Part shown: in pieces, positions 20,552 through 60,480 of the stretch | How the letters are laid out: each line of letters starts with the position of its first letter | Position numbering within the stretch: the first letter of the stretch is position 1 | NCBI GenBank assembly: GCA_023264875.1 | Contig: JAHFUX010000006.1 | Coordinates: 1,303-65,302, forward strand | Length of the DNA stretch: 64,000 bases | Reading direction: 5' to 3' | Source: Nitrosarchaeum sp. | Lineage (GTDB): Archaea > Thermoproteota > Nitrososphaeria > Nitrososphaerales > Nitrosopumilaceae | Position numbers and translations under genes: made by a program | Notes under the pieces: generated by a model | What the model was told of the DNA's origin: nothing | The model's input: the letters and a program-made list of their open reading frames with translations, nothing else | Databases searched by the model: none

Positions 20552-20658
20552 TTCCAATAAAATTTCCTTTATTTTTTTAATCACGTAAAAACAAAATATT
20601 GCTCATTTGATTACAACATATCAATAATACTGATAAATAATTGATGTTACATATTCAT

Positions 20659-20760
20659 TCACAGATTCTCAGAATGATGATATTCAAGACGATGATCATG
20701 GTGATGATCATGACAATTACAAGAACAACAAGAAAAATAACGGTTAATGCCTACTCCCAT
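20659..20760 (-). CDS. 33-aa Cys/His-rich micro-peptide (metallothionein-like candidate)
   Basis: Manual translation MGVGINRYFSCCSCNCHDHHHDHRLEYHHSENL*; TATAAA 30 nt upstream of ATG. Confidence 0.55.
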   Translation of the reverse strand: MGVGINRYFSCCSCNCHDHHHDHRLEYHHSENL

Positions 20761-50254: not shown

Positions 50255-50761
50255 AGAATTTGATCTAAATTTAACACACAGACGGTAAAAATTAGATAGT
50301 AACCAAAACCAATCAGATATCCACTGACACCTGAGCATCAATTCTCTTTTCACATACCATTGATGTTTGGGATTAATTGATTACTACCAGTATCATAATG
50401 TAATAATGAAATAAAAAGACTGTTCTGTAAATTCTTAACATTTGTTTATTTTTGTAAGAAATTTTGTATGAAGTTAAGACTGACATCTATTTAATCTTCT
50501 TATGGCTGGTAATTTTCTATAATCTTTTGAACATTGGCAAGAATTATCTCGCTAATCTCTTGTATTCAATCCTGATGTCTTCATGAGTTTAATTTGTTCT
50601 AAAATTGTAAACTGGATTCTTCCTTGCATCTGTTCTATGCCAAATCCTTCTTTTGGAAATTGTTATGAATTTTTTTGATTCGTCTTTATCCAATTTATTT
50701 CTCTTTGAGAAAAGATATTAAAATATCTAGTTCTTGATGTATGACATTTATGGAAATAATT

Positions 50762-51112
50762 CTATTCATTCCATACTGGTTGTTTTTTCAACCAAGATAT
50801 CAAATCTCTGTACAGTTGGCTTTTTTGTACATTTAAGACATTGATTTCCATATTCGTTGATAATTTTGCTGTCTTGGTATAGTGTTCATATTTTGCAAAT
50901 ATGACTTTGTCCAGATATGTCTGGCCTTGAATCTCTTTTTTTGCCAATTCCTCAGAATCAGTCATTGCAAAGCATGCAAAGAGAACTCCATCAACCCAAT
51001 ATGCATTGCCTGATTCAAGTGATCCCATCATGCTGAGCAGATCATCCAAGCTTAGCTTGATCAGGTCTCTAACATAGACGGTTTTGTATGGCTCGTGAAT
51101 AAAATCAGTCAT
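50762..51112 (-). CDS. Conserved archaeal hypothetical protein
   Basis: 116-aa ORF with W.DGVLF motif. Confidence 0.75.
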   Translation of the reverse strand: MTDFIHEPYKTVYVRDLIKLSLDDLLSMMGSLESGNAYWVDGVLFACFAMTDSEELAKKEIQGQTYLDKVIFAKYEHYTKTAKLSTNMEINVLNVQKSQLYRDLISWLKKQPVWNE

Positions 51113-55122: not shown

Positions 55123-55779
55123 CTACCAAACCGCATGTACTATTTCTTGTAAATTTCTTCTTGGTTTTGGGAATTTATCTTGTTTAGGATATCCTATGCA
55201 TAATACTGATGATGGAATCAAATCTGTGTTGATTATTTTCATTACTTTTTGCTCATCAAACATCCCGATCCATATGGAACTTAATCCCAAAGCCTGAGCT
55301 GCAAGCTGAGAATATGCTGCTGCTAATGTGGCATCTTGTATGGCAAATTTTTTGAGTACTTCTTCTGGAAAATTAAATTTGACTCTTGCCGGATTTTTAC
55401 AAAAAACTAGTACCACAGGTGCATATACGTATGGCTGATTGTTGCATGCCTCTACTAGACGCTGTTTTTTTTCAGGACTTTTTACATAAAATATCTCAAA
55501 ACCCTGAAAATTTCCAGCAGTAGGTGCAGTATCTGCAGCAGCTATGATCTTGTCTATCTTTACTGTCTCTACTATTTTGTCTGCAAACTTTCTAGTTGAG
55601 CGTCGTTTTGACATCACTGTAAACAAATCTGTATTGATAAATTCAGTTGGCGATGATTTTAGTATCTCACTGAGTAATTGATTTCTAACATTAACGTCTG
55701 TATTGGTCTCTTTTGGTTCATATCCTGATGGATAAATTTTTTCAGGTTCATCTTTTGAATCCATGTTATATGAAGACAA
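55123..55779 (-). CDS. Nitroreductase family protein
   Basis: KRRSTRKF, APTAGN.Q, ALGLSSIWIG.FD, LCIGYP. Confidence 0.95.
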   Translation of the reverse strand: MSSYNMDSKDEPEKIYPSGYEPKETNTDVNVRNQLLSEILKSSPTEFINTDLFTVMSKRRSTRKFADKIVETVKIDKIIAAADTAPTAGNFQGFEIFYVKSPEKKQRLVEACNNQPYVYAPVVLVFCKNPARVKFNFPEEVLKKFAIQDATLAAAYSQLAAQALGLSSIWIGMFDEQKVMKIINTDLIPSSVLCIGYPKQDKFPKPRRNLQEIVHAVW

Positions 55780-58183: not shown

Positions 58184-58330
58184 CTATTTTTTCTTTAGCA
58201 GTGCATCTTCCGGTGTTTTATCTTGATTAATTTGCCAATGCCAATTGTGATGTTTTTTCCAATGTTCTTCTAATTGTTGAATTGTAGGTTCTTTTCCTAA
58301 AGGTGTTCCACAAATTTTACACTGCCTCAC
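58184..58330 (-). CDS. 48-aa C2H2 Zn-finger micro-protein
   Basis: Manual translation MRQCKICGTPLGKEPTIQQLEEHWKKHHNWHWQINQDKTPEDALLKKK*. Confidence 0.75.
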   Translation of the reverse strand: MRQCKICGTPLGKEPTIQQLEEHWKKHHNWHWQINQDKTPEDALLKKK

Positions 58331-58396
58331 AAATTTTTGTAAATTTCTGTAAAATTAAGGATTGCTTTTTCTTTGATTGATAATCCACTGTTTATC

Positions 58397-58828: not shown

Positions 58829-58957
58829 ATGAGTGAAAAGGCAAGAAGAATTGAGGAATTAAGAATGAAAACTGGTAGAAGCAAGCGTTGTCTTGATTGC
58901 AAAAAACATCGATGTATTATTGATAGTTGTCAATGCAGTTGTCATTTGAAAAGCTAA
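58829..58957 (+). CDS. 42-aa Cys-rich micro-protein with CxCxCH end
   Basis: Manual translation MSEKARRIEELRMKTGRSKRCLDCKKHRCIIDSCQCSCHLKS*. Confidence 0.65.
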   Translation: MSEKARRIEELRMKTGRSKRCLDCKKHRCIIDSCQCSCHLKS

Positions 58958-59131
58958 CTGGCATCAAAGACCTATGTGTCAGACCTGAATGACGAGCTTC
59001 ACTGCTCTAGCCTGAAAGAGGTTGTGGGTATTGTTCATTTCCCAATCTAGCCAATTAGCAACTAGCATTACACCTTTCATCAATAAAGAGTTTAAAATCT
59101 GGCTTAATTGTTGTTTTTAACCTATATACCA

Positions 59132-59254
59132 TTAGAATGATTTTGAGTCCATTTTCCTTGAATCCATCATGATGATTTTATGACACTTACAAAAGCAATT
59201 AGCATGAATCATATCGTGAGTATTTCTGTATTCACATTCTTTAGTATGTTCCAT
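59132..59254 (-). CDS. 40-aa Cys/His micro-protein with CxCxCH motif
   Basis: Manual translation MEHTKECEYRNTHDMIHANCFCKCHKIIMMDSRKMDSKSF*. Confidence 0.55.
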   Translation of the reverse strand: MEHTKECEYRNTHDMIHANCFCKCHKIIMMDSRKMDSKSF

Positions 59255-59401
59255 ATGATATTTTATTTTCAATTTTTATACACTTAAAGATTAACGAATA
59301 TTAGGTCATTAGCAATGCACACGATGAACATTACAATACGTATTGAATTGCTTTAAAAGTATTAAATTGGAATTTAAAAGAAAAAAATTTGCTTCACTTG
59401 A

Positions 59402-59452
59402 TTATTTCTTTTTTGAAGCTTTTTTTGCTGCTGCTTTTTTCTTGGCTGCCAT
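59402..59452 (-). CDS. 16-aa Lys/Ala-rich peptide
   Basis: Manual translation MAAKKKAAAKKASKKK*. Confidence 0.5.
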   Translation of the reverse strand: MAAKKKAAAKKASKKK

Positions 59453-59597: not shown

Positions 59598-60191
59598 TTA
59601 TTTTGTATTGATTGAATCTGGATCGTTATTTCCTGAAATATATTTATCTCCTAATTCTGCCTTCATTTTTTCATCAAATTCTTCTTGTAATCTTGTTAGA
59701 TAGATTTCTGCTTCCGTTTCGTCATCTGGAATTCCTGTATTTACATTGTAATTGAAACCCGTCGCTAGATGGTAAAACTTCTCAAAGAATTCCTTGCAAT
59801 CTATTACGTCTGCATGAGAATCAACTGCTACTACCAGACAATCACTGTCTTTTCTAAATTTTAAACAAATTTCTTCATCAATCATGGTATCTACTATTAC
59901 TGCCATGAGATACGGAATTAATGATTCATCTATTCTCTGATTATTCTTGGCATTTGTTATCCATAATTCATAACCGTCTACAAGATATTCAAACGTGCTA
60001 ACTATGATTTCTCTGATATTGCTATCTAGATGTGCTAGTTTTGATTTCCATGATCTCTCTTCTTTATTTCCAGGTTTTACATACATTACATCAAATTTTA
60101 TTTCTTCGTGAATTTGCTCATATTCCCAAATTTGCTTGTTTGTCCACATAGGTGAATACTTTTCGATTAGTGCTACAGTTAATTTATCCAA
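59598..60191 (-). CDS. Acidic hypothetical protein
   Basis: 197-aa ORF; no recognised motif. Confidence 0.65.
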   Translation of the reverse strand: MDKLTVALIEKYSPMWTNKQIWEYEQIHEEIKFDVMYVKPGNKEERSWKSKLAHLDSNIREIIVSTFEYLVDGYELWITNAKNNQRIDESLIPYLMAVIVDTMIDEEICLKFRKDSDCLVVAVDSHADVIDCKEFFEKFYHLATGFNYNVNTGIPDDETEAEIYLTRLQEEFDEKMKAELGDKYISGNNDPDSINTK

Positions 60192-60264: not shown

Positions 60265-60480
60265 TTAGTTTTTGATATTTGATTTTAAAAATGCTAATGT
60301 GCATTCTGCAAGTTCTTTATCTGAATGTTTTTTGATGGCGTGCTTGCAGTTAGGGCATGTACCTCTGTCTTCCTCAATAAAATCATCCCCCACTTGTTTC
60401 ATACAACATTCCATTAGTTCTGCAGTAGAATGTGATTCCATGGCTAGTTTGCATGTAGGACATTCAGTCAAATTTTTCAC
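60265..60480 (-). CDS. Tandem C2HC-type Zn-binding repeat protein
   Basis: CPTC.....HS..EL.EC and CPNC.....HS..EL.EC. Confidence 0.75.
   Translation of the reverse strand: MKNLTECPTCKLAMESHSTAELMECCMKQVGDDFIEEDRGTCPNCKHAIKKHSDKELAECTLAFLKSNIKN

What the first reader, a model, noticed from the sequence alone, without database searches (positions are those of the whole stretch)
58829..59254. Two convergent CxCxCH micro-genes; third family member at 20659
Seen: SCQCSCH (42 aa, +) and NCFCKCH (40 aa, -) face each other across 174 nt. With CCSCNCH at 20659, three otherwise dissimilar peptides share C-x-C-x-C-H with extra Cys/His nearby, and none is in the ORF track. Inference: a hidden family of metal-binding or redox micro-peptides, perhaps specialised for different metals. 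This is my best candidate for an undescribed system here, together with the hairpin family.
Basis: partly seen in the sequence, partly recalled or inferred. Interest (0 to 1): 0.7.

Follow-up and report, generated by a model that had tools for sequence, protein, structure and literature searches.

The report
Two real Cys/His micro-protein genes
Two of the three tiny CxCxCH reading frames are genuine, strongly conserved 40-42-residue cysteine/histidine-rich proteins of ammonia-oxidising archaea (probably small metal-binding proteins of unknown role, mostly missed by annotation), while the third is only the antisense shadow of a decayed gene.

Summary
The window comes from a Nitrosarchaeum (ammonia-oxidising archaeon, about 32% GC). 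Exactly three CxCxCH strings occur in the six-frame translation, against 0.15 expected.

pep1 (58829-58957, +, 42 aa) and pep2 (59132-59254, -, 40 aa) are real protein-coding genes. Start and stop are conserved, pN/pS is 0.14 and 0.20 in the claimed frame only, and each has seven invariant Cys/His residues.
- pep1 is a Nitrosopumilaceae family with the pattern CX2CX4CX3-4CXCXCH. It has a paralogue in sister species and one YwbE fusion.
- pep2 is present in 53 related loci, including Nitrosopumilus. It has been named once (BG20_I0777) and is uncalled in the closest NCBI record.

The third peptide (20659-20760, -) is not conserved. It lies antisense to the 3' remnant of a gene with an Asp/His-rich tail.

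pep1 and pep2 may be distant relatives (hhalign 32-48%), but this is unproven. Nothing in Pfam, NCBIfam or PDB matches either one. Metal binding is inferred, not shown.

The 174-nt spacer holds a roughly 105-nt non-coding element (58953-59060). It is more conserved than synonymous sites and is probably a structured RNA.

The parts
58829..58957 (+). pep1: a 42-aa basic Cys-rich micro-protein, MSEKARRIEELRMKTGRSKRCLDCKKHRCIIDSCQCSCHLKS. The N-terminal part is a predicted basic helix (residues 3-15). The C-terminal part is a CX2CX4CX4CXCXCH module.
   Evidence: The exact sequence is in NCBI as a hypothetical protein. Invariant positions are K14, G16, R17, S18, C21, C24, C29, S33, C34, C36, C38 and H39. 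It is present with the same start and stop in 22 loci. pN/pS is 0.14 in frame and above 1 in the other same-strand frames. Entropy at codon position 3 is 0.55, against 0.26 and 0.12 at positions 1 and 2.
58953..59060 (+). Conserved non-coding element of about 105 nt and 45% GC, directly 3' of pep1. Its 5' stem half overlaps the pep1 stop codon. It is a candidate structured RNA or 3'-UTR element, with a terminal stem GCUAACUGGC/GCCAAUUAGC and the motif CUGA-AUGA(C/U)GA-N16-CUGA.
   Evidence: Mean pairwise identity is 0.84 (0.93 without four divergent species, and 0.95 between window and L027). This compares with 0.57 for the next 70 nt and 0.67-0.77 for codon position 3 of the flanking genes. 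Indels of 1, 6 and 7 nt rule out coding. nhmmer finds it in all 22 Nitrosarchaeum loci next to pep1 and nowhere else in the DNA held. Stem cells are 87% paired, against 2-41% when slid, but covariation is no better than shuffles. There is no Rfam match.
59061..59131 (.). Poorly conserved AT-rich spacer with T-runs on both strands. It probably holds the 3' ends of the two convergent transcripts.
   Evidence: Mean pairwise identity is 0.57. The sequence was read. A terminator function is inferred, not tested.
59132..59254 (-). pep2: a 40-aa Cys/His-rich micro-protein, MEHTKECEYRNTHDMIHANCFCKCHKIIMMDSRKMDSKSF. It has 4 invariant Cys and 3 invariant His, and a conserved C-terminal tail.
   Evidence: tblastn finds it in 53 related loci, including Nitrosopumilus, with a conserved stop after ...(S/T)F. 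Invariant positions are H3, K5, E6, C7, R10, D14, H17, C20, C22, C24, H25 and S37. pN/pS is 0.20 in frame, with pS 0.77. Upstream in-frame stops in L008, L009, L011 and L013 fix the ATG at 59254 as the start. It is annotated once, as BG20_I0777, and is not called in NCBI record JBBDXM010000009.1.
59283..59292 (-). Conserved AATCTTTAAG box, 29-38 nt upstream of the pep2 ATG. It is a candidate archaeal TATA box, which implies a short or absent leader.
   Evidence: It is near-invariant in Nitrosarchaeum loci although the surrounding upstream DNA is only 0.54 identical. A promoter function is inferred from position and sequence only.
20659..20760 (-). pep3: the 33-aa ORF MGVGINRYFSCCSCNCHDHHHDHRLEYHHSENL. 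It is judged not to be a gene. It is the antisense reading of the + strand remnant 20637-20744 (IIDVTYSFTDSQNDDIQDDDHGDDHDNYKNNKKNNG*).
   Evidence: The exact sequence is not in the 15-billion-protein collection. No conserved counterpart exists in 77 syntenic loci. The closest relatives (L085, L087, L092) have no intergenic region at all there. L090 and L098 carry an intact 199-203-aa + strand gene ending ...IDVTYSFTDP.DDDA.DDD..., of which the window keeps only the 3' end without a start codon.

Best explanation
The 58.8-59.3 kb locus of this Nitrosarchaeum genome holds two real, independently transcribed, convergent micro-genes. Both encode small Cys/His-rich proteins.

pep1 (42 aa) belongs to a Nitrosopumilaceae-restricted family. 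Its members combine a basic N-terminal helix with a compact C-terminal module, G-R-S-x-x-C-x2-C-x4-C-x3-4-C-x-C-x-C-H, which has six invariant Cys and one invariant His. The module behaves as a separable unit. It has a paralogue ('pep1b') in sister species, a marine branch in another genomic context, and one fusion to a YwbE/DUF2196 domain.

pep2 (40 aa) is a separate, possibly distantly related family: H-x3-C-x9-H-x2-C-x-C-x-C-H followed by a conserved tail. It is found across Nitrosarchaeum and Nitrosopumilus.

Inferred mechanism (not shown): each peptide is too small to have a hydrophobic core. It would instead fold around one or two metal ions, Zn(II) being most likely and Cu(I) possible, held by its seven invariant Cys/His ligands. 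This is how archaeal zinc-finger micro-proteins fold. pep1 would then use its basic helix to bind nucleic acid or a partner. pep2 would use its conserved C-terminal tail to dock on a partner protein.

The third CxCxCH ORF at 20659 is a chance antisense frame over the remnant of a gene with an Asp/His/Asn-rich tail. On the opposite strand, GAT-GAT-CAT and ACA-rich codons read as His and Cys.

The spacer between pep1 and pep2 carries a strongly conserved non-coding element that abuts the pep1 stop codon. It is most likely a structured RNA made on the pep1 strand.
For: Organism and context:
- Cluster names and 80 syntenic loci are all Nitrosarchaeum, Nitrosopumilus or other Nitrosopumilaceae.
- The locus sits in a conserved core block, zr71-g197-...-g119-zf48-g76-g157.

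Coding status:
- pN/pS is 0.14 for pep1 and 0.20 for pep2, in the claimed frame only.
- Variation concentrates at third codon positions.
- Start and stop positions are conserved.
- Cys and His are invariant while the residues between them vary.
- Where the paralogue pep1b decays (L012, L022), its Cys residues are the first to be lost.

Family structure:
- An HMM search of 1.84 billion representatives finds only 7 pep1 relatives, among them a YwbE fusion.
- hhalign of pep1b against the pep1 family gives 86% probability, E 5e-6.
- The marine branch lies in another genomic context.

Transcription (weak evidence):
- Metatranscriptome contigs from related strains cover pep1 plus the element. One spans 58841-59066 and ends just after the element.
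- Other contigs cover pep2.

pep3:
-.

Element:
-.
- U-G pairs at one stem position in 7 of 17 sequences fit the + strand but not the - strand.
Against: - No metal binding, translation or function has been demonstrated.
- The AlphaFold models are of low confidence (pLDDT 64 and 69). They match nothing in the PDB by fold or by sequence.
- No Pfam or NCBIfam family matches. The zinc-finger analogy therefore rests only on ligand pattern and size.
- The RNA evidence comes from assembled metatranscriptome contigs. These may contain DNA and carry no strand information.
- A strain-specific, newly arisen pep3 gene cannot be formally excluded.
- The secondary structure of the spacer element has no significant covariation support.
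Confidence: 0.7

Rival explanations
1. All three CxCxCH peptides form one homologous family of metal-binding or redox micro-peptides, each specialised for a different metal.
For: The terminal CxCxCH is shared. pep1 and pep2 align without gaps as K-x-C-x12-C-x-C-x-C-H, with hhalign probability 32-48%. They are neighbours in all 22 Nitrosarchaeum loci.
Against: pep3 has no conserved counterpart and overlaps a gene remnant on the other strand. The pep1-pep2 similarity is carried almost entirely by Cys and is not significant. In Nitrosopumilus, pep2 sits elsewhere without pep1. Nothing bears on metal specificity.
Confidence: 0.05
2. The ORFs are not translated. The conservation reflects RNA-level or DNA-level function, for example one long structured RNA that spans pep1 and the downstream element.
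For: The element immediately 3' of pep1 is conserved as non-coding sequence. No proteomic evidence is available.
Against: The substitution pattern is codon-periodic. pN/pS is 0.14-0.20 in exactly one frame. The reading frames stay open with fixed start and stop across genera whose DNA is saturated at synonymous sites (pS 0.77). The element itself tolerates frameshifting indels, whereas the ORFs do not.
Confidence: 0.03
3. pep1 and/or pep2 are precursor peptides of ribosomally made, post-translationally modified products that use their Cys residues. Examples would be a thiazole- or thioether-containing copper-binding compound, or a SCIFF-like peptide.
For: The peptides are short and Cys-rich, with six Cys in 42 residues. 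A nitroreductase-family gene lies about 3 kb away at 55123-55779. The organism needs much copper (general knowledge).
Against: No radical-SAM, YcaO, MbnBC or lanthipeptide-type maturase was seen among the neighbours scanned. NCBIfam, which contains the SCIFF model, gives no hit at E<=10. The whole peptide is conserved, not just a leader. pep1 and pep2 keep no constant neighbour across genera.
Confidence: 0.05
4. The Cys clusters work as thiol or disulfide redox switches, or bind an Fe-S cluster, rather than as structural Zn or Cu sites.
For: Closely spaced Cys (CxCxC) can form vicinal disulfides or ligate Fe-S clusters. This is an inference from chemistry, and no tool result speaks to it.
Against: The invariant His next to the last Cys, and the two further invariant His in pep2, are more typical of Zn or Cu sites. 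No Fe-S family matched.
Confidence: 0.1

Closest known systems
Zinc-finger micro-proteins of Haloferax volcanii (C(P)XCG type, e.g. HVO_0758, HVO_2753) and Brz of Halobacterium (PMC6562870, PMC11241148, PMC10716476, PMC2253796)
   Same: They are archaeal proteins under 70 aa and consist of essentially one Cys/His metal-binding module. They are often missed or left unnamed by annotation, many are lineage-restricted, and their roles are regulatory or adaptor-like.
   Different: Those proteins are defined by two C(P)XCG knuckles with four ligands and one Zn. pep1 has one CxxC plus CxCxCH, with seven invariant ligands. pep2 has no CxxC at all. There is no sequence or profile similarity. PMC11241148 also shows that a predicted zinc finger does not always bind zinc, so binding must be measured.
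CxC-type Cu(I)/Zn(II) sites: the CopY C-terminal CxCxxxxCxC motif and CXCXC blocks of metallothioneins (PMC12648655, PMC4862169)
   Same: They have alternating Cys-x-Cys runs, which can form polynuclear thiolate clusters with Cu(I) or Zn(II). This makes copper a plausible ligand in a copper-dependent ammonia oxidiser.
   Different: Cys content is much lower than in metallothioneins, at 14% and 10%. The sequences are fixed and conserved, with His ligands and non-Cys invariant residues. No DNA-binding domain of the CopY type is present, and no profile match was found.
YwbE family (TIGR03833 / DUF2196)
   Same: One relative, P0073, carries a complete YwbE domain fused N-terminally to the pep1-type module.
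   Different: pep1 itself has no YwbE domain. The function of YwbE is also unknown, so the fusion shows that the module is separable but does not indicate a function.
Archaeal box C/D sRNAs and other L7Ae-bound k-turn RNAs (PMC6009581, PMC5539422). This comparison concerns the spacer element only.
   Same: The + strand has AUGA(C/U)GA and CUGA boxes. Four species carry the canonical AUGAUGA. The element abuts the 3' end of a protein gene, a placement described for Pyrobaculum C/D sRNAs.
   Different: There is no second box pair and no 12-nt guide spacing. At about 105 nt it is longer than the usual 50-70 nt. Rfam gives no match. See the membership test.

Membership tests
C(P)XCG zinc-finger micro-proteins (Haloferax type) | At least two C(P)XCG / CxxC knuckles providing four ligands | tested here: not met
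   pep1 has a single CLDC. pep2 has no CxxC.
C(P)XCG zinc-finger micro-proteins (Haloferax type) | Size under 70 aa and a single-domain protein | tested here: met
   The proteins are 42 aa and 40 aa.
C(P)XCG zinc-finger micro-proteins (Haloferax type) | Stoichiometric zinc binding | not testable with these tools
   This needs purified protein and metal analysis.
Metallothioneins | Very high Cys content (about 15-30%), few or no aromatic or His residues, and a match to a metallothionein family profile | tested here: not met
   Cys content is 14% (pep1) and 10% (pep2). pep2 has invariant His and Tyr/Phe. No Pfam or NCBIfam hit was found even at E<=10.
SCIFF / Cys-rich RiPP precursors | A profile match (TIGR03973-type) and an adjacent radical-SAM or other maturase gene | tested here: not met
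   NCBIfam gives no hit. The neighbours carry no maturase domain. The neighbourhood is not conserved between lineages.
pep1-type module family (CX2CX4CX3-4CXCXCH; unnamed) | Invariant G-R-S-x-x-C-x2-C-x4-C-x3-4-C-x-C-x-C-H | tested here: met
   Window pep1 matches all invariant columns of A1 and A4. pep1b matches the family with hhalign probability 86%.
pep1-type module family, as applied to pep2 | The same ligand spacing and a significant profile similarity | tested here: inconclusive
   The two share K-x-C-x12-CxCxCH without gaps. C24 and C29 of pep1 have no counterpart in pep2, and hhalign gives 32-48%.
pep1-type or pep2-type family, as applied to pep3 (20659) | Conservation of the ORF and of its Cys/His pattern in orthologous loci | tested here: not met
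   Only 3 of 77 loci have any His-rich antisense ORF there. None of these conserves a start codon, the sequence or CxCxCH.
Box C/D sRNA (spacer element 58953-59060) | A terminal C (RUGAUGA) and D (CUGA) box pair, plus an internal D'/C' pair with guides of about 12 nt | tested here: not met
   Only one C-like and two D-like boxes are present, with 16-nt spacing and no C'/D set downstream. The best Rfam hit is E=7.3 and lies outside the element.
tRNA (spacer element) | A cloverleaf detectable by ARAGORN, with introns allowed | tested here: not met
   No tRNA gene was found.

The most novel reading that the evidence does not exclude
pep2 is a previously overlooked core component of the metal economy of ammonia-oxidising archaea, for example a Cu(I) or Zn chaperone or a small subunit of a copper enzyme. 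It is a 40-residue protein with 4 Cys and 3 His, conserved across Nitrosopumilaceae. Alternatively or additionally, pep1 is an RNA-binding zinc micro-protein that recognises the conserved k-turn-like element in its own 3' UTR. That would form an autoregulatory micro-RNP of a kind not described in archaea.
Probability: 0.12. Interest if true: 0.7.

Novelty: new variant of a known kind. Interest (0 to 1): 0.42.

Why it matters
Ammonia-oxidising archaea drive much of global nitrification and depend heavily on copper, yet about half of their conserved genes have no assigned function. This work shows that a 40-residue Cys/His-rich protein is conserved across two genera but is absent from most gene calls. 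A second micro-protein family with a distinctive CX2CX4CX3-4CXCXCH module has paralogues and one domain fusion. Both are concrete, cheap targets, because peptides of this size can be chemically synthesised and used directly for metal-binding tests. If they bind copper or zinc they bear on metal handling in these organisms. If they do not, they are still two new small-protein families with unusual ligand patterns. The case also shows how antisense frames of Asp/His/Asn-rich coding sequence produce convincing but false 'metal-binding' ORFs in AT-rich genomes.

Tried and rejected
1. Known-family searches were all empty for the three peptides: Pfam and NCBIfam at E<=10, PDB sequence profiles and Foldseek against the PDB. 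The PDB sequence hits (cyclin K, a FYVE-RING protein) are chance matches at E 0.1-0.5.

2. AlphaFold2 on the small alignments gave pLDDT 64 and 69. That is too low to read ligand geometry.

3. The spacer element is not a tRNA, even with introns allowed.

4. The spacer element does not match any Rfam family.

5. The spacer element is not a canonical C/D sRNA, because the box layout is wrong.

6. The spacer element is not a small ORF, because it tolerates frameshifting indels.

7. I tested whether the spacer element mimics 23S rRNA domain V. GAGCUUCACUGCUCUAGCCUGA resembles GAGCUUUACUGCAGCCUGA, a sequence I confirmed as real Bacillus 23S. The local alignment score is reached by 16% of shuffles, so I dropped the idea. 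It could not be tested against a thaumarchaeal 23S sequence.

8. RNAalifold and pair counting on the element showed a real inverted repeat but no significant covariation, because the sequences are too similar.

9. Very abundant lake-metatranscriptome contigs match 59417-59451. They align for only 35 nt and have unrelated flanks carrying a bacterial-type ribosome-binding site. This is a low-complexity chance match, not expression of this locus.

10. An ATCUN (NH2-X-X-His) copper site at the pep2 N-terminus (M-E-H) was considered. Nitrosopumilus orthologues start M-I-E-H or M-S-x-I-E-H, so it is not conserved.

11. A literature search for small Cys-rich proteins in Nitrosopumilus found nothing relevant.

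Full report
**What the window is**

The window is AT-rich, at 27-36% GC. Exact-sequence look-ups of its proteins return clusters whose named members are all 'hypothetical protein [Nitrosarchaeum sp.]'. The 197-aa gene at 59598-60191 recovers 80 syntenic loci from GTDB species representatives, all Nitrosarchaeum, Nitrosopumilus or other Nitrosopumilaceae. The window is therefore chromosomal DNA of a Nitrosarchaeum, an ammonia-oxidising archaeon. It contains no tRNA gene and no Rfam family at gathering score.

**Checking the observation**

The three ORFs are exactly as described:
- pep1, 58829-58957 (+): MSEKARRIEELRMKTGRSKRCLDCKKHRCIIDSCQCSCHLKS.
- pep2, 59132-59254 (-): MEHTKECEYRNTHDMIHANCFCKCHKIIMMDSRKMDSKSF.
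- pep3, 20659-20760 (-): MGVGINRYFSCCSCNCHDHHHDHRLEYHHSENL.

The gap between the pep1 and pep2 stop codons is 174 nt. A six-frame regex scan finds exactly these three CxCxCH strings. Five hundred dinucleotide-preserving shuffles average 0.15, and none reaches three. The analytic expectation from six-frame residue frequencies is also 0.15.

**pep1 is a real gene**

- The exact 42-aa sequence is in NCBI as a hypothetical protein, within a 19-member 90% cluster.
- In an alignment of 19 relatives, the invariant columns are K..R.KTGRSKRCLDCK..RC...SC.C.CH. The residues between the cysteines vary (Q/L/H/K and S/R/E/G/N/D/T).
- tblastn finds it with the same ATG and stop in 22 loci.
- Over 22 distinct nucleotide sequences, pS is 0.44 and pN is 0.06, giving pN/pS 0.14 in the annotated frame. 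The two other same-strand frames give values above 1.
- Entropy by codon position is 0.26, 0.12 and 0.55.
- A profile search of 1.84 billion representative proteins finds only seven relatives. Among them are a marine branch (WLRVKSGRSKGCKDC..HRCIP.SCNCNCH) and one protein, P0073. In P0073 a complete YwbE/DUF2196 domain precedes the Cys module.
- The marine branch and another relative lie in unrelated neighbourhoods. The gene is therefore not tied to one operon.

**pep2 is a real gene, and the more widespread of the two**

- tblastn finds it in 53 of the related loci, in both Nitrosarchaeum and Nitrosopumilus.
- The stop is always after ...(S/T)F. In Nitrosarchaeum the start is the ATG at 59254, because several species have an in-frame stop just upstream. 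In Nitrosopumilus the start is one to three codons further upstream.
- Invariant residues are H3, K5, E6, C7, R10, D14, H17, C20, C22, C24, H25 and S37.
- Synonymous sites are saturated (pS 0.77) while pN is 0.15. pN/pS is 0.20, in the claimed frame only.
- Among called proteins it appears only as 20 small unnamed clusters. One is named: 'hypothetical protein BG20_I0777 [Candidatus Nitrosarchaeum limnium BG20]'.
- In the near-identical NCBI record, no gene is called between pep1 and the 197-aa gene. 'Hidden' is a fair description of pep2.
- In Nitrosarchaeum it lies between the 197-aa and 119-aa genes, convergent with pep1. In Nitrosopumilus it lies about 2-3 kb away in the same conserved block. 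There it sits directly behind a 133-aa gene and is convergent with a 78-aa gene.
- A near-invariant AATCTTTAAG box 29-38 nt upstream of its ATG in Nitrosarchaeum looks like an archaeal TATA box. This is inferred.

**pep3 is not a gene of this kind**

- Its sequence is not in the protein collection.
- I fetched 80 metagenomic loci around the adjacent UbiA gene. None of them conserves the peptide.
- Only three loci (L090, L098, L152) have any His-rich antisense ORF at that place. These have no common start, no common sequence and no CxCxCH.
- In the closest relatives, the upstream 866-aa gene ends about 25 nt before UbiA, so the region does not exist there.
- In L090 and L098 a 199-203-aa + strand gene occupies the gap. 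It ends ...IDVTYSFTDP.DDDA.DDD(H/Q)DDD....
- The window retains only the last 35 codons of that gene (IIDVTYSFTDSQNDDIQDDDHGDDHDNYKNNKKNNG*), preceded by stop codons and lacking a start.
- On the opposite strand, the GAT-GAT-CAT repeats read as His-Asp-His and the ACA-rich Asn/Lys codons read as Cys. This produces the 'CCSCNCHDHHHDH' string.
- pep3 is best explained as the antisense shadow of a decaying gene.

**Is there a family?**

Partly. I scanned 972 kb of related loci for CxCxCH. The hits were:
- 19 pep1;
- 51 pep2;
- 12 others, of which two are the marine pep1 branch, six are one recurrent out-of-frame string, and about four look random;
- 7 copies of a peptide I had not looked for, pep1b: MSFWNKK.CSDCKRMKCQKGC.CDCHQLRDRID (33 aa).

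This 'pep1b' lies between the 119-aa gene and the 48-aa zinc-finger gene in several sister species. It has lost its cysteines in L012 and L022. It is missing from the window, where that gap is only 66 nt instead of about 600 nt.

Profile comparison with the pep1 family gives 86% probability, E 5e-6, with nearly the same spacing. So pep1-type micro-proteins are a small multigene family.

pep2 aligns to pep1 without gaps as K-x-C-x12-C-x-C-x-C-H, but only at 32-48% probability. pep2 against pep1b gives 27%. Common ancestry is possible but unproven.

**What they probably do**

Both peptides are too short to have a hydrophobic core, and each has seven invariant potential ligands (6 Cys + 1 His; 4 Cys + 3 His). 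The most economical reading is a metal-organised fold.

The closest known kind is the archaeal zinc-finger micro-proteins (PMC6562870, PMC10716476, PMC11241148) and Brz (PMC2253796). However, the defining two C(P)XCG knuckles are absent. PMC11241148 also warns that predicted zinc fingers do not always bind zinc.

Cys-x-Cys runs bind Cu(I) and Zn(II) in CopY and in metallothioneins (PMC12648655, PMC4862169). Copper is therefore a reasonable alternative ligand in a copper-dependent organism.

pep1 has a predicted basic helix at residues 3-15 followed by the invariant GRSKR. This suggests contact with nucleic acid or an acidic partner. The conserved but disordered tail of pep2 (K26, I27, M29, S32, S37, F40) suggests a docking motif.

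All of this is inference. No known family, solved structure or fold matches, and the models are of low confidence. Neighbouring genes are lineage-specific proteins of unknown function plus other small zinc-finger proteins, so they give no functional lead.

**Transcription**

Assembled metatranscriptome contigs from related strains (90-95% identical) cover the locus. One contig spans 58841-59066, that is pep1 plus the downstream element. Others cover pep2. Such contigs can contain DNA and have no strand information, so this is only weak support.

**The spacer**

The first 103 nt after the pep1 stop (58958-59060; 58953-59060 including the stem) are 45% GC and strikingly conserved.
- Mean pairwise identity is 0.84 in 19 species and 0.93 without four divergent ones.
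- Identity between the window and L027 is 0.95, although pep1 third positions are only 0.62 identical in that pair.
- The next 70 nt are 0.57 identical.
- Indels of 1, 6 and 7 nt exclude a coding function.
- The element is found next to pep1 in all 22 Nitrosarchaeum loci and nowhere else in the DNA held. It is absent next to the pep1 homologue of L004.
- One metatranscriptome contig matches only the element, with unrelated flanks.
- On the + strand it has a 10-bp terminal stem whose single C·A mismatch is repaired in two different ways (C to U, or A to G). It also has a position with C-G in eight sequences and U-G in seven, which fits only the + strand.
- It carries the motif CUGA-AUGA(C/U)GA-N16-CUGA.
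- Covariation is not significant. It is not a tRNA, not a canonical C/D sRNA, and not in Rfam.
- I regard it as a probable structured RNA or 3'-UTR element of unknown class.

**Verdict**

There are two real, conserved, under-annotated Cys/His micro-proteins and a real small pep1-type family. Homology between pep1 and pep2 is unproven, and there is no evidence about metal specificity. This is a new variant of a known kind (archaeal metal-binding micro-proteins), of moderate interest. The spacer element and the broad conservation of pep2 are the most promising leads.

Noticed in passing
window 58953-59060 (+): A non-coding element of about 105 nt and 45% GC between the two micro-genes. It is more conserved than synonymous sites of the flanking genes (0.84-0.95 identity). 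It has a terminal stem overlapping the pep1 stop codon and box C/D-like motifs. Its class is unknown and it has no Rfam match.
   Followed up: partly
L013:5811-5912 (+), also L014-L017, L020, L027; corresponding window gap 58331-58396: A third genuine CxCxCH micro-gene, 'pep1b' (MSFWNKK.CSDCKRMKCQKGC.CDCHQLRDRID, 33 aa). It is a paralogue of pep1 and lies between the 119-aa and 48-aa genes in sister species. It has decayed in L012 and L022, and the whole segment of about 550 nt is absent from this window.
   Followed up: partly
window 59402-59452 (-): A 16-aa Lys/Ala-rich ORF, MAAKKKAAAKKASKKK, about 200 nt upstream of pep2 on the same strand. It is kept in 17 Nitrosarchaeum loci, with only in-frame length changes (16-18 aa). 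It could be a real ultra-short gene or a low-complexity coincidence.
   Followed up: partly
window 20637-20744 (+): The 3' remnant (last 35 codons, no start) of a 199-203-aa gene with a signal-anchor-like N-terminus and an Asp/His-rich acidic tail. The gene is intact in L090 and L098 and completely deleted in the closest relatives. This is a gene caught in the process of being lost.
   Followed up: yes
window 50503-50693 (-): The homologue of a 78-aa Nitrosopumilus gene, which there is the convergent partner of pep2. In the window it is split over two reading frames. This is either a frameshifted pseudogene or an assembly error. The adjacent 116-aa gene (50762-51112) is intact.
   Followed up: partly
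window 58184-58330 (-) and 60265-60480 (-): Two further small Cys/His proteins in the same conserved block: a 48-aa C2H2-like finger (weak zf-met2 hit) and a 71-aa double CxxC zinc ribbon. This block of core genes is unusually rich in micro zinc-finger proteins.
   Followed up: partly
L151:275-298, L158:277-300, L165:3001-3147: In marine Nitrosopumilus contigs, the pep1-type gene (KSGRSKGCKDCLTHRCIPSSCNCNCHK) sits about 2.2 kb upstream of the same UbiA gene whose upstream region carries the spurious pep3 in this window. This looks like coincidence rather than synteny.
   Followed up: no
whole window: CxCxC without the His occurs 16 times in six frames, against 4.6 expected from shuffles. Apart from pep1, pep2 and pep3, the hits are in 11-57-codon frames that overlap larger genes. 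This is probably a codon-composition effect.
   Followed up: partly
window 59417-59451: Very abundant short contigs (depth up to 1600) in lake metatranscriptomes match this 35-nt Lys/Ala-coding stretch, but their flanks are unrelated and look bacterial. This is a low-complexity cross-match that could mislead expression analyses.
   Followed up: yes
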